Shown here piece after piece: positions 8,688 to 63,858 of a stretch of DNA of 64,000 bases. Position 1 is the stretch's first letter, and every line of letters starts with the position of its first letter. The stretch comes from Octopus vulgaris (Eukaryota): the NCBI GenBank assembly GCA_951406725.2, contig OX597816.1, positions 123,132,001 through 123,196,000 on the forward strand. The letters run 5' to 3'. Below the pieces are notes generated by a model. That model saw only the letters and a program-made list of their open reading frames with translations, was not told the origin of the DNA and did no database searches. Position numbers and translations under genes: made by a program.

Positions 8688-8987
8688 TTGCATTGGGAAC
8701 CACTTCACATTGACAACCGGTGATTTCACATGCTGATGATGGGTCAAAAATCCAGAAACCCGGGTCTGTGTGTATCACATCAGGTTGGAGATGGGAAGGA
8801 TGGCTTCCCTTTGCAAATACTGATAGGGTACAGAAAGTGTGTCAGTAGCCAGCTGGAAGAGGTGTCTTCCTAGTGCTACAAGCTACAGTAGCATCCACCC
8901 TTAAGGGCTAGCCACATTTCAGTGGCAAATATATTTCATGATGTCATGCAGCTACTGTTTATACCTCACTCAGAGATTTATTACTGC
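8688..8987 (+). mobile_element. Hammerhead-bearing ~300-bp element (retrozyme/Penelope-pLTR-like unit, family H1)
   Basis: Colinear homology with 63561-63858 along its length; contains the hammerhead at 8720-8778; 3' end runs into (TA)n. Confidence 0.75.
8720..8778 (+). ncRNA. Type I minimal hammerhead ribozyme
   Basis: Stem I CACATG/TGTGTG, extended by GTGAT/ATCAC across an internal loop. Core CTGATGA (8733-8739); stem II TGGGT-CAAAA-ATCCA; GAAA (8755-8758); stem III C-CCGG-G with palindromic loop; cleavage triplet GTC (predicted cut after 8766). Confidence 0.8.
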
Positions 8988-9135
8988 ATATATATATATA
9001 TATATATATATATATATATGTATATACACACACACACATATGTATATATATGTATGTATGTATGTATGTATGTATGTATGTATGTATGTATGTATCTATG
9101 TATGTATGTATGTATGTATACAGGTATGCATGTAT
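8988..9135. repeat. (TA)n/(TATG)n microsatellite
   Basis: Directly visible. Confidence 0.95.
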
Positions 9136-9846
9136 AACTTTTAATTTAAAAATGAAGACCTTAATTTCTAAATTAAAAATTCTAAGGAAGTATATTTATC
9201 CAAAGTAAGCAAGATATATTGACATTCAGGCAAAGAGTCTTCATTCTACTTTACATTTTCCCCTCTAAATCTTTATGGCTCTACAACATTAAGATATATA
9301 AAGAAATTACTTATAATATTCAATGAAAATATATTGTCAAAGCTTCTTTGCATAAATGAACATTTGTCTTCATTTATCAAAAATATCTCTTCTGGCAACA
9401 GCTTTTGTTAATCCATTGAATAATGAACTGCAGTTACGTTAGTCGAGGATAAGATGAGAGGTTTTGTTTTAAAACTGAAATTGCTTTAATTCTCATTATT
9501 CATTCTTGTTTAAAATTGGTGGTTAAATTATTTAGTGAGAGCAGTATATTAAAGTTTACTGTATTTATTGATTAAATTACAGATTTCTTACTTTATTTCT
9601 TCACTTTTGAGAGAAAACTACTCCAGAATTTAGACATTTTTTTTACTATATTAATAAAGATGGAGGACTGCACCTTAAAGGGAGACTGACAGTGTATTTT
9701 GTATTACAGAATATGATTGCAAATATGAAAGGGAAAAATCACTGTCTCTGAAATGCACATACTCATGCACAGACATGCCCATGTTTTATTTCATTCTAAT
9801 TCAACTTCATCTTTCTTGGAAGATAATCAGAATTCACTAGTTTTCC

Positions 9847-10068
9847 TTAAGCCATTTGATATTAATCCACCTGAGACCATCTTAGTTCTAGGATACAAAC
9901 TTTCTGTTTGAATGTGGTCTAAATTAAAACTTCCCATCAAAATTTTGTGTTAATTTATGTTTCAAAAACCAGCTTGATAATTACAAAGTGATTTTAGAAA
10001 ATTTTTCAGTATTTAAAAGAATATAATGGTAGTGTATTTCAGTTGAAATATGGTAACAAAAAGGTTAA
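9847..10068. mobile_element. TTAA-flanked piggyBac-like MITE (diverged copy)
   Basis: TTAA at both ends with degenerate terminal repeats; body homologous to 13150-13357. Confidence 0.6.
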
Positions 10069-10265
10069 ATCATCATCATCATCATCATCGTTTAACGTCC
10101 GCTTTCCATGCTAGCATGGGTTGGACGGTTCAACTGGGGTCTGGCAAGCCCGAAGGCTACACCAGGCCAGTCAGATCTGGCAGTGTTTCTACAGCTGGAT
10201 GCCCTTCCTAACGCCAACCACTCCGAGAGTGTAGTGGGTGATTTTATGTGCCACCGACACAGGCA
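10069..10265 (-). mobile_element. RTE-tail repeat copy (young)
   Basis: (CAT)n followed by CGTTTAACGTCCGCTTTCCATGCTAGCATGGGTTGGACGG; very similar to the start of 54557-55045. Confidence 0.8.
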
Positions 10266-11679
10266 CAAATATAAGTATTTTTTGTTTGGTATTATTTCTT
10301 CTGGTTAAAACATACAATACATGTTGTAATCTAATGTTGGACTGTTATAACGTCCACTCCAGTATAGCAGTATATTTAGTCAGGTAAGACACGACTATCT
10401 ATGACCGACTCCCCCAAATTCTCCTATGTCAAAGTATTTGTAATGATTATTACATACCACTCATTGCATGGGGGGAGTATTCCATTATTATTATCATTTC
10501 CATAATGATCTATGATTAATATTTTCTCTCAGGTCTTTTATATAAACAAATGCAGATGCACACACACACACACACACAACACTATTTTATATAATGTTGT
10601 TATTGCTGTTATTATTGTTTATCTCCATGTCTTGGTGATCCTGCCATTTTGTTAAACATAGTGTCCCTCGGACTGCATTATTTAAAGTGTCATTCCTTTC
10701 TTTAAGACAGCAAGATATGATTTGAGGTGGATTTAACAACTATTTCTAACAGTCAAATAACATAAAATCTACACCTTTGGTTTCTTTTGCATAATGCTTT
10801 GAATACTATCAAGAGTTGTTCAGCTTTGAAACTCAAAATATTTATCTTAAAATGTCAGAGGTGTTCAAGTGTTTTGATATTTCATGGGAATCCTTGAAAC
10901 AGGAAATTTCTGTATCTCTATTTGTCTGTAAAATGTCCTTGCACTTCAAAACTGTTCAGGTTCTTATAAGTGGTAAATGCAATTTCTTTTGCTCTTTTTT
11001 GCCATTGCTAACACCAACACTAAAATTGTAAAGCAGGAATTTATGCAATTATCATGTTGTTGAATCTGAGAAAGCTTTCTAGATAAATACGCAATCCCTT
11101 GTCACCAATAAATCTCAAGAACAGCTTTAATTCCTGAACAGGATTTCTTTAAAACAGATCTCTTTGGCTGGGGATAAGCAAACAGTGCAAGAGATATGTT
11201 TATATTTGTTTTTAAACAACAATGTTTCTGCAAACATCAGCAATAACATTAGTCTCTGTCTGTGAGTCTGAGTACTACACAACAACTGAAATGCAAATAA
11301 TGATTGCAGAATTTTTTTTTTATATTACATCATTTACTTTTATTATAGTTCTGTGTTGTCTAACACTCTGGAATCAACTCAAATATCAGTGATTGATCTT
11401 GTTCAATAGATTATAAAACACTGTGGAGTGTAATCCAAGCAGGAGAAAATATTTTGTTCCTTTGCAACAATATATTTAGTCAAACATTCTTTTGTTTCTA
11501 TTTAACTTTATTCTATACACCACTTTGTCAAAGATAGCATTCAATCAATTAAATTAAACATATGGAAGGGAAAAAATATCCTAAACTATCATTATCAGAC
11601 CTATTATTTAGCATTTCAGCTCAGCTAATTGCTCTCTCCACCCACCCCTCTTCCTCCTCTCTCTTCTTTTTAGAAAAAC

Positions 11680-61752: not shown

Positions 61753-63376
61753 ATATATATCTATTGTGCTTGAATAGCTGAAAATATTTTTATTGGAGCT
61801 ATCATTTTTGTAGCTGGCTAGCTTTCCTCTAGTTAATCATACTATCGTGAAGTCCCAACATCATTTCTTATTTCCTTTTAGCCAGACAAATTGAAATAAT
61901 AAGAGATACATAACAGACTTAGTGATATAATTGACTTGTGTGTTTTAAACTAATGACCATTTATTCACATGTTCATTAGTTTAGCCCTTTAACCTCACAG
62001 CCACTATATCTCATGAATCGATGATGGCTTGCTTGCTTCACTGGTTCAGAAATTCCTAGCTCTCGTCTGGTAATTTATTTGCTGCTGTCACAATTAATGT
62101 CAGTTATCTCATTAGATTCTCTATTTCATTTGATATTAGAAATAAAATTAAAAAATTACTGCTTTTGTAAATTAATTCTTTCTTTTAAAGTGTGACACTT
62201 ATTGAGAATGAAAATTAAAGAAAAGAATCAATATTGAGAAAAGTTGTCTTAATTCGTTTTTCTAAAAGAAGTTTATTTCATATTTTTTTAGATTTAAAAA
62301 AAAAAATCTAAAATAGTTATTTGGTATGTTTCTCAAAATACACAATCAGCCAAGCTATATATTCTTACTAAAAATATAATATGGGATAATTGAGCACTGA
62401 ATTCTTTTAAAATGATTTTATAAATAGAATTAATTCTTTACTATGGATAATCAATACTACTTATATCATATCAAAGTAATTGTATTTTAAACTTAAAATT
62501 ATTTTTTATAAACAACTGCATATTTCTCATTCCTTCCTTTTTTTGTTTACTTTTTGTTCTAACTATGATTCCTTTTCTTATACTCTTTGTATTCACTATA
62601 TCTTTCAACCCTTTTTGCCATCACTTATATCCTCCCTTAAGTGACACATACGCCCACAACATCTTATATGAATCCCTTTCTGAAGTAACTCATTTCTCTT
62701 TCCACATCCAACCCATGCTCATTTCCATTTTAGATGAGAATTTATGAAGATACACAAGGCTGTACAGGATTTGGGGATAAATATATAGATCGAGGGAAGT
62801 AACTTATAAAGAAATCTTAATTGTTACCTTAAATCTTATCATCCTCCCATTCGCCCTGGGATCTTTGCAAGGAGCTGCATTCACCATGGATTGATTAATT
62901 CCCTGATTATTTTATGTGAGAATGCTTGTGCATGTCTAGGCTTATAAATACACATGTATGTACACATGCATCTCCATACAAAATATGCTCACACTCACAG
63001 ATGCACACACATAGACAAACAAACATGCACACACAGACAAACATACACACACATACACGTGCACACATACACATACGTTCACACACACATATACACATGC
63101 ATGTGTGTGTATGTTGTGTATCTATCAGAATGCCATGATAGATCGTTAGCTCCAACACGCATTTTTTTTCTCTCCTTGTTTACTTTTGTAAATTTTCCCT
63201 TTGTATATATATATATAACGTAAAGTATACTAGCTATCAATATGGCTAACCACTAAGGGTGGGTGTTACCGTAGCTTTTAGCCCCCGGAGATCATCGTCT
63301 CCAGCTGGCTTTAGGCACACTGTCTGTGCCCTTATGGTATTTGCAAAGGGAGGTCATCCCTCTCTCGTGAGCCTAA

Positions 63377-63435
63377 GCAATACATACGGACTGCAGTTTT
63401 GAGGTGTTTGCCTCTTGTCAACGCACGGTAATCAC
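63377..63435 (-). pseudogene. Inactivated hammerhead ribozyme, left arm
   Basis: CGTGCG TTGACAA GAGG-CAAACA-CCTC AAAA C-TGCA-G TC CGTATG: stems intact, core positions C3, G8 and G12 substituted. Confidence 0.7.
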
Positions 63436-63594
63436 CGGTTTACGATGAAAAGGAAGACTTGTTTGCAAATACTTATGGGTTTTTCTAGTAACTACTGTCA
63501 CTGATTTCGAAAAACTGTCTGCAAGCAATAATAAATTTCTGAACGAGATGTAAACAGTAATTGCAAACAGGTCTTCCCTTTTCATCATAAGCCG

Positions 63595-63653
63595 GTGATT
63601 ACCGTGCATTGACACAAGGCAAACACCTCAAAACTGCAGTCCGTACGTATCGC
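63595..63653 (+). pseudogene. Inactivated hammerhead ribozyme, right arm
   Basis: CGTGCA TTGACAC AAGG-CAAACA-CCTC AAAA C-TGCA-G TC CGTACG; positionally homologous to 8720-8778. Confidence 0.65.
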
Positions 63654-63858
63654 TTAGGCTTACGAGAGAGGGATGGCCTCCCTTTGCAAATACCATAAGG
63701 GCACAGATAGTGTGCCTAAAGCCAGCTGGAGATGATGATCTCCTGGGGCTAAAAGCTACAGTAACACTCACCCTTAGTGGTTAGCCATATTGATGGCTAG
63801 TATACTTTACGTTGTCGAGCGGTTACTGTTTACATCTCGTTCAGAGATTTATTATTAC

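What the first reader, a model, noticed from the sequence alone, without database searches (positions are those of the whole stretch)
8688..63858. Family H1: a structured ~300-350 nt RNA unit with covarying helices in two distant copies
Seen: 8688-8987 and 63561-63858 align end to end despite divergence, and the differences preserve pairing. Stem II is TGGGT/ATCCA vs GAGG/CCTC (left arm). The stem III palindrome is CCCGGG vs CTGCAG, and stem I is CACATG/TGTGTG vs CGTGCG/CGTATG. Downstream hairpins are GGAAGA-GGTG-TCTTCC vs GGAGA-TGATGA-TCTCC and GCCAC..GTGGC vs GCCAT..ATGGC. Both copies end ...CAGAGATTTATTA followed by (TA)n. Inference: a non-coding, ribozyme-bearing retroelement (retrozyme-like) selected at the RNA-structure level. 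I do not know of a description of this specific family but cannot search to confirm.
Basis: partly seen in the sequence, partly recalled or inferred. Interest (0 to 1): 0.9.

Follow-up and report, generated by a model that had tools for sequence, protein, structure and literature searches.

The report
Active self-cutting RNA parasite (retrozyme)
This is a 355-letter non-coding repeat, present in well over a thousand copies and recently spreading, that carries a predicted self-cutting RNA (hammerhead ribozyme) and is likely copied into the genome by the enzymes of a Penelope-type jumping gene; its class is known, but its insertion scars and altered ribozyme core make it a good test system.

Summary
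Observation confirmed. The unit is a 355-nt, ORF-less monomer with a type I hammerhead and palindromic stem III. It is dispersed genome-wide (1,466 exact hits of a 19-mer) as truncated, more-than-unit, tandem (about 10-mer) and inverted copies. Window copy B is one inverted insertion (63217-63859). Inherited changes keep helices paired (2 of 30 break, against 133 of 233 copy-private changes). Insertions carry Penelope scars: about 12-bp target duplications, (TA)n targets, and a 45-nt tail at one end only (48 of 67 inverted loci). Copying runs through the cleavage site, as expected for a circular or multimeric template. No Penelope ORF was attached, but a young Neptune element with an intact ORF is the likely driver. 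The core shifts from C3-G8 to U3-A8 (known) to U3·G8, fixed in the youngest subfamily (32 of 33). Verdict: a new member of the known non-LTR retrozymes. Cleavage and circular RNA are untested, and Rfam does not detect the hammerhead. The scan noted Penelope-type hammerhead insertions in other genomes, not this family.

The parts
8671..8987 (+). Copy A, monomer positions 41-355, older subfamily A; 5'-truncated, inserted at the (GAT)n/TA end of a broken LINE
8719..8778 (+). Type I hammerhead of copy A: outer stem I 8719-8724/8774-8778, stem I 8727-8732/8767-8772, core CTGATGA (C3-G8) 8733-8739, stem II 8740-8744/8750-8754, GAAA 8755-8758, palindromic stem III 8759-8764, predicted cleavage after 8766
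   Evidence: cleavage inferred from the consensus core
8855..8870 (+).
8911..8926 (+).
8943..8987 (+). About 45-nt Penelope-type tail (monomer 310-355) ending at the main fixed 3' end
8988..9019 (.). (TA)n flank of copy A
63204..63217 (.). (TA)n left flank of insertion B
63217..63560 (-). Left arm of inverted insertion B: monomer 319-355 then 1-309, ending at the tail-less end (309)
63383..63427 (-). Hammerhead of the left arm: U3-A8 core TTGACAA 63421-63415, stem II G-C closed, G12 changed to A (predicted inactive), palindromic stem III
63556..63560 (.). Inversion junction; the arms overlap by 4-5 nt (microhomology)
63556..63859 (+).
63603..63647 (+). Decayed hammerhead of the right arm (core disrupted, G12 changed to A)
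63860..63908 (.). (TA)n right flank of insertion B

Best explanation
H1 is a 355-nt protein-free repeat with a type I hammerhead motif and Penelope-type insertion scars, which likely spreads as a non-autonomous retroelement (non-LTR retrozyme): its RNA is predicted to self-cleave and circularise and would be reverse-transcribed in trans by a Penelope-like element, probably the resident Neptune family. Steps: (1) Tandem or more-than-unit copies are transcribed (inferred). (2) Two hammerheads pair through their palindromic stem III and cut out a 355-nt monomer whose ends are held together by the long stem I rod (motif and fold shown; cleavage inferred). (3) The monomer is ligated to a circle, by RtcB as in other retrozymes (inferred from PMC7229834). 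(4) A GIY-YIG endonuclease makes a staggered cut of about 12 nt in AT-rich or (TA)n DNA (duplication shown; enzyme inferred). (5) Each free target end primes cDNA at a fixed internal site of the RNA, monomer position ~355 or ~309, and runs through the cleavage/ligation site, often for more than one unit (ends and read-through shown; priming inferred). (6) When both ends prime, the two cDNAs join head to head, giving inverted insertions with the tail at one end only (pattern shown; mechanism inferred). Selection acts on the RNA of source copies; inserted copies, such as the two in this window, decay.
For: Monomers of 354-357 nt in an array of about 10 units. 1,466 exact 19-mer hits, control 0. 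Core positions G5, A6, A9, A13, A14, A15.1, U16.1 and H17 show no change on internal branches. Both-sided changes on internal branches: 9, against 0-1 in six slid controls. Stem III stays self-complementary across subfamilies (CCCGGG, CTCGAG, CTGCAG, CTATAG). Of 220 free 3' ends, 123 fall at 345-356 and 60 at 296-314. 48 of 67 inverted loci have one end of each kind. Non-microsatellite target duplications of 9-15 bp, mode 12, in 15 of 79 inverted and 5 of 86 single-orientation insertions; shuffled controls average 0.11 and 0.29. No pile-up of 5' ends at the cleavage site: 7 of 78, against 5-13% elsewhere. 25 of 134 arms exceed 365 nt. 73 of 97 segments that reach the monomer start continue into the previous unit's tail. 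A Neptune element with a 781-aa RT + GIY-YIG ORF in many near-identical copies also ends in (TA)n, with or without a tail. The youngest H1 copies are 97-100% identical.
Against: No hammerhead hit in Rfam for the window, copy A or the intact array. Neither cleavage nor circular RNA was shown. Over all 64 pairs, with gains counted as breaks, the internal-versus-tip contrast is not significant (p 0.13), and the helices were drawn from one of the aligned copies. The youngest, most active subfamily lacks the Watson-Crick 3-8 pair (U3·G8), and a U4C core appears in 7 of 103 copies, so fast cleavage may not be needed. There is no BLAST similarity between H1 and the 3' regions of 80 PLE loci beyond independent neighbouring H1 copies. 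The Neptune link rests on target, age and a weak tail resemblance (nominal p 0.013 and 0.019, post hoc, 10 comparisons). A second, older PLE family also appears to make 12-13 bp duplications (seen by eye), so duplication length does not identify the driver.
Confidence: 0.8

Rival explanations
1. Same element and same PLE machinery, but the template is an uncleaved linear read-through transcript of tandem arrays. The hammerhead is weak or serves mainly as a fold that the PLE protein binds, and circles are a side product.
For: Read-through at the cleavage site fits linear multimers as well as circles. U3·G8 is fixed in the youngest subfamily and U4C occurs in an intermediate one. Eight of nine Xenopus retrozyme dimers did not cleave in vitro, and PLE minimal hammerheads cleave poorly.
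Against: Core nucleotides, the GUC site and the stem III palindrome stay conserved across the whole subfamily ladder. The 3-8 switch was compensatory. Unit length is held at 354-357 nt, and the fold pairs the two predicted ends.
Confidence: 0.12
2. H1 is the pseudo-LTR of an autonomous Penelope-like element not yet found; the copies are 5'-truncated cis products.
For: The architecture is that of PLEs. Only the best 150 endonuclease hits were scored per search. Many retrozymes are homologous to pLTRs.
Against: 5'-extended copies loop back into their own tail (73 of 97), and the other 24 share no non-H1 sequence by eye (most loci were picked by the tail motif, which favours this junction). PLE protein matches near 150 H1 loci were four unrelated fragments. 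None of 80 PLE loci carries H1 as its terminal repeat.
Confidence: 0.06
3. A DNA-level satellite or MITE-like repeat spread by unequal crossover or a DNA transposase; the folds are by-products of inverted repeats.
For: A tandem array with alternating unit lengths exists. The minus strand folds almost as well as the plus strand (z -4.6 against -4.9).
Against: Variable 5' truncation with fixed 3' ends, 12-bp duplications, a strand-specific hammerhead core and compensatory change in a tertiary RNA pair.
Confidence: 0.02

Closest known systems
Metazoan non-LTR retrozymes (Cervera and de la Pena 2020, PMC7229834), especially mussel (350-390 bp) and axolotl Rtz_353
   Same: 170-400 nt non-coding monomer, type I hammerhead with 2-bp stem III and palindromic loop, highly self-paired fold, tandem and dispersed copies, co-existing PLEs. 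Axolotl HHR_Amex2 also has a mismatch at the base of helix II.
   Different: No sequence relationship was tested. H1 is mostly dispersed, truncated and inverted copies with visible PLE scars; the words 'inverted' and 'target site' do not occur in that paper's main text. Core variants U3-A8, U4C and U3·G8 arise within one lineage. Circular RNA is not shown here.
Insertions of endonuclease-bearing Penelope-like elements, Neptune clade (PMC8557442, PMC3846280, PMC4209133)
   Same: Partial tandems, inverted 5'-truncated partner, tail at one end, short target duplication (8-10 bp in Adineta), microsatellite targets, dimer-type hammerhead, U3-A8 variant.
   Different: No ORF. The tail is about 45 nt rather than 30-40. 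The hammerhead has a full stem I rod and lies about 220 nt from the 3' end. No detectable homology to resident pseudo-LTRs.
Vertebrate retrozymes as PLE derivatives (Li, Clavereau, Pollet, bioRxiv 10.64898/2026.07.22.740005)
   Same: Monomers, dimers and multimers of a type I hammerhead unit; proposed PLE dependence.
   Different: That study argues from co-occurrence and pLTR homology (24 of 57 Xenopus families homologous to annotated TEs, nearly all PLEs) and sampled no mollusc. H1 shows no pLTR parent but gives integration-scar evidence for PLE mobilisation.

Membership tests
non-LTR retrozyme | Repeat unit of about 170-400 nt occurring as tandem copies | tested here: met
   354-357 nt units, array of about 10; dimers at other loci
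non-LTR retrozyme | Type I hammerhead in each unit | tested here: met
   Core, three stems and GUC site conserved in 103 copies and in all 9 array units read. Rfam models do not detect it.
non-LTR retrozyme | No protein-coding capacity, no LTR/PBS/PPT body | tested here: met
   Copies loop into their own tail with no attached ORF
non-LTR retrozyme | Highly self-paired monomer | tested here: met
   z -4.9 linear and circular; -3.71 and -5.94 for the window copies
non-LTR retrozyme | Self-cleavage in vitro | not testable with these tools
   Needs transcription assays
non-LTR retrozyme | Expressed as abundant circular RNA | tested here: inconclusive
   No holder on record as RNA; only contigs available
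non-LTR retrozyme | Co-occurrence with autonomous PLEs | tested here: met
   Intact 781-aa Neptune ORFs and other PLE families
PLE-type insertion | Inverted 5'-truncated partner, tail at one end, short target duplication | tested here: met
   48 of 67 inverted loci asymmetric; 20 clear duplications, mode 12 bp
Autonomous PLE pseudo-LTR | Lies directly 3' of an RT + GIY-YIG ORF | tested here: not met
   Not seen at 136 H1 loci or 80 PLE loci; a sample, not the whole genome
Annotated Dfam/Repbase family | Sequence match to a curated consensus | not testable with these tools

The most novel reading that the evidence does not exclude
H1 is a currently transposing circular-RNA parasite whose newest lineage has abandoned the Watson-Crick 3-8 pair of the hammerhead active site (U3·G8) to slow cleavage and stabilise the circle. 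It hijacks a co-active Neptune element through a mimicked 3' tail. Its inverted insertions, occasionally built from two different RNA variants inside one target duplication, show that Penelope-type integration primes both target ends independently.
Probability: 0.25. Interest if true: 0.75.

Novelty: new member of a known kind. Interest (0 to 1): 0.5.

Why it matters
Two questions are stated as open in the papers read: which enzymes mobilise animal retrozymes (PLEs are only 'a strong candidate') and how PLEs make tandem/inverted insertions with a one-sided tail. This genome holds a young retrozyme subfamily and a young intact Neptune element side by side, with many readable insertion scars, so both questions become testable with a 355-nt substrate. 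The subfamily ladder is also a natural record of hammerhead core evolution (C3-G8 to U3-A8 to U3·G8).

Tried and rejected
Rfam: only microsatellite-driven miRNA and snoRNA hits, no hammerhead. Expression: no RNA holder listed. Contigs of three guessed-RNA runs and one other run lie on the unit but cannot show transcription, ends or circles; not used as evidence. Driver search: the first PLE family found has an unrelated pseudo-LTR and only broken ORFs among 150 hits. An H1 copy 1.2 kb after a Neptune ORF (L223) is a separate insertion about 600 bp past that element's end. Target duplication length of the Neptune could not be read because its flanks are (TA)n. The first arm-identity calculation was confounded by self-hairpins and was replaced. 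The shared-variant test of circle versus linear template did not discriminate (within-insertion divergence 2.1% against 2.5% between insertions in the young subfamily). CpG decay as the cause of U3-A8 was rejected: C3 is not in a CpG, and the state is clade-wide. U3-A8 as a novelty was rejected: it is reported in PMC3088659 and PMC4209133. The kinetic paper on 3-8 exchanges (PMC1986816) is not held, so the effect of U3·G8 is not sourced.
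Full report
Observation. The two stretches align end to end at 71% identity (235 of 331 columns), and each named helix is present. Copy A spans 8671-8987. The second copy is the right arm (63556-63859) of an inverted insertion whose left arm runs 63560-63217; the arms are 240 of 257 identical and both outer ends abut (TA)n. A relaxed hammerhead scan of the window gave three hits: copy A, the left arm, and one AT-rich hit at 51172 that I treat as chance. 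Rfam found no hammerhead in the window, in copy A or in an intact array; the hammerhead call rests on the consensus core and on conservation.

The family. The window lies in a 2.8-Gb assembly (G000); the species was not determined. Searches with the two copies gave 3,676 and 4,147 first-look candidates, of which 40 each were scored. These are not copy numbers. A 19-mer near the 3' end has 1,466 exact matches, control 0, and an exact U3-A8 hammerhead pattern has 162. The unit is a 354-357 nt monomer, seen in an array of about 10 units on C4. I analysed 60 loci from the two DNA searches, 90 of the 100 listed motif places on C1, and 30 young loci, dropping overlapping duplicates (136 loci). Of 97 segments that reach the monomer start, 73 continue into the tail of a previous unit; the other 24 show short tail remnants, inversion junctions or flanks, and no shared foreign sequence by eye. 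The motif-picked loci favour this junction. No PLE ORF is attached.

Selection on RNA structure. In 103 copies covering monomer positions 55-309 (7 further array units left out), I mapped changes on a tree. Over all 64 pairs the figures are 16 of 58 against 273 of 486 (p 4e-5), but this loses significance when gains are counted as breaks (p 0.13), because the long rod and two small hairpins shift register between subfamilies. Both-sided changes on internal branches number 9, against 0-1 in six slid controls. The helices were drawn from one aligned copy, which favours the real pairing over slid ones. Stem III stays self-complementary while changing sequence, as expected of hammerheads that work as dimers (PMC4209133). 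Monomers fold with z about -4.9 and pair their predicted cleavage ends in a long rod; the minus strand folds almost as well, so z does not give the strand.

Core variants. The midpoint-rooted tree is a ladder from old to young: C3-G8 with a C·A mismatch at the base of stem II; an intermediate group, some with U4C; then U3-A8 with G10.1-C11.1; and, nested in it on a long branch, a group with U3·G8. The 3-8 switch is one event, so it does not show co-evolution with stem II. U3-A8 is known in nature and active in vitro (PMC3088659; PMC4209133). The U3·G8 group is the youngest: the best hits are 96-100% identical on many contigs, and 32 of 33 parsed hammerheads from 27 loci have U3 and G8 (arrays and one probable duplicated locus add rows). 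Three paper searches for such a core returned nothing describing it, but the main kinetic paper is not held, so its effect is unknown to me. Window copy A keeps a full core; both arms of copy B have G12A at a CpG and are predicted inactive.

Integration scars. Of 220 free 3' ends, 123 lie at monomer 345-356 and 60 at 296-314; 68 and 28 of these have a TA run within 20 nt. Of 67 inverted loci, 48 have one end of each class, 2 have two tailed ends, and 17 have one end elsewhere. This is the PLE pattern of an inverted partner and a tail at one end (PMC8557442; PMC3846280). Non-microsatellite target duplications of 9-15 bp (mode 12) flank 15 of 79 inverted and 5 of 86 single-orientation insertions, against control means of 0.11 and 0.29; 46 more are unreadable microsatellite matches. 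5' ends do not pile up at the cleavage site (7 of 78, against 5-13% in other windows), and 25 of 134 arms are longer than one unit. So cDNA starts inside the monomer and crosses the cleavage site, which needs a circle or an uncleaved multimer; these data cannot tell which. Among 44 inverted loci with at least 100 shared sites, the arms usually resemble each other as much as or more than other copies. In L049, however, arms inside one 12-bp duplication differ at 27 of 298 sites and match different sublineages (17 of 19 and 14 of 19 shared polymorphisms), and L050 looks similar. Two templates in one event is the simplest reading; gene conversion is not excluded.

The driver. A GIY-YIG search (150 of 6,136 candidates scored) found several Neptune-type families. 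One has a 781-aa RT + GIY-YIG ORF with the CX4CX2C linker, in many near-identical copies. It ends in (TA)n, with or without a tail of about 35 nt, and has its own U3-A8 minimal hammerhead. H1 shows no BLAST similarity to the 3' regions of 80 PLE loci. Only a weak tail resemblance to this Neptune was seen (nominal p 0.013 and 0.019; four other PLE ends p 0.56-0.99; post hoc). Neptune as driver is therefore likely but unproven; I put it at about 65%.

Expression. No run on record as RNA holds the unit, and contigs cannot show circles; this is no evidence either way.

Known relatives and novelty. H1 meets every testable feature of non-LTR retrozymes (PMC7229834). In the held library, the one listed paper with 'retrozyme' plus octopus or cephalopod (20 of 2,554 rows listed, ranked by terms held) and the papers with Penelope, hammerhead and octopus do not describe it in the passages seen; the giant squid paper only counts 235 hammerhead loci. 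Dfam, Repbase and supplements were not seen and may hold this family. What I saw of each paper: PMC7229834, passages and parts 3-4 of 6; bioRxiv 10.64898/2026.07.22.740005, parts 1-3 of 5 (all main text; supplements closed); PMC4209133, parts 1-2 of 4; PMC8557442, PMC3846280, PMC3088659, PMC6962438, PMC3884650 and PMC7151607, passages only. Hammerhead numbering is as in those papers. Verdict: a real, structure-selected, recently active retroelement; a new member of a known class, with above-average value as a test system (interest 0.5).

Noticed in passing
L187, L192, L211-L216 (e.g. G000:C16:33681500-33688000): Young Neptune-type PLE with an intact 781-aa ORF, many near-identical copies, a U3-A8 minimal hammerhead in its terminal repeat, (TA)n targets and an optional tail of about 35 nt.
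   Followed up: partly
L061-L090, 150-450 nt after the endonuclease match: A second, older PLE family whose terminal repeat holds a tRNA-like segment (by eye), an (AAT)n run and a minimal C3-G8 hammerhead; possibly an internal Pol III promoter or a fixed SINE insertion.
   Followed up: no
L049:930-1810: One inverted insertion inside a 12-bp duplication whose two arms come from different H1 sublineages; L050 looks similar.
   Followed up: partly
L098, L099, L117, L154, L161, L141, L094: Intermediate H1 group with a U4C hammerhead core; a related Neptune family (L223, L229) shows the same CCGAAGA core.
   Followed up: no
window 5909-8664 +: Broken LINE (Exo_endo_phos domain at 5909-6559, RT motifs in broken frames) ending in (GAT)n; H1 copy A sits at its 3' end.
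   Followed up: partly
window 31617-35171: Nested inverted pairs (33323-33844 with 35171-34582, 78%; 31617-32012 with 34239-33757), not H1; probably a local inverted duplication or an old DNA transposon.
   Followed up: no
window 20465-20878, 47554-47968, 55908-56313, 57858-58254: Four copies of a ~400-bp SINE-like repeat with a tRNA-like head (by eye), 72-83% identical.
   Followed up: no
L243 and L244 (G000:C2 about 152.135 and 152.388 Mb): The same complex young H1 insertion with its flanks appears twice, in opposite orientation, 250 kb apart; segmental duplication or assembly duplicate.
   Followed up: no
L044 (G000:C4:13621068-13624379): Array units alternate 357/355 nt with linked variants, suggesting later DNA-level duplication of a dimer or a dimeric template.
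   Followed up: no
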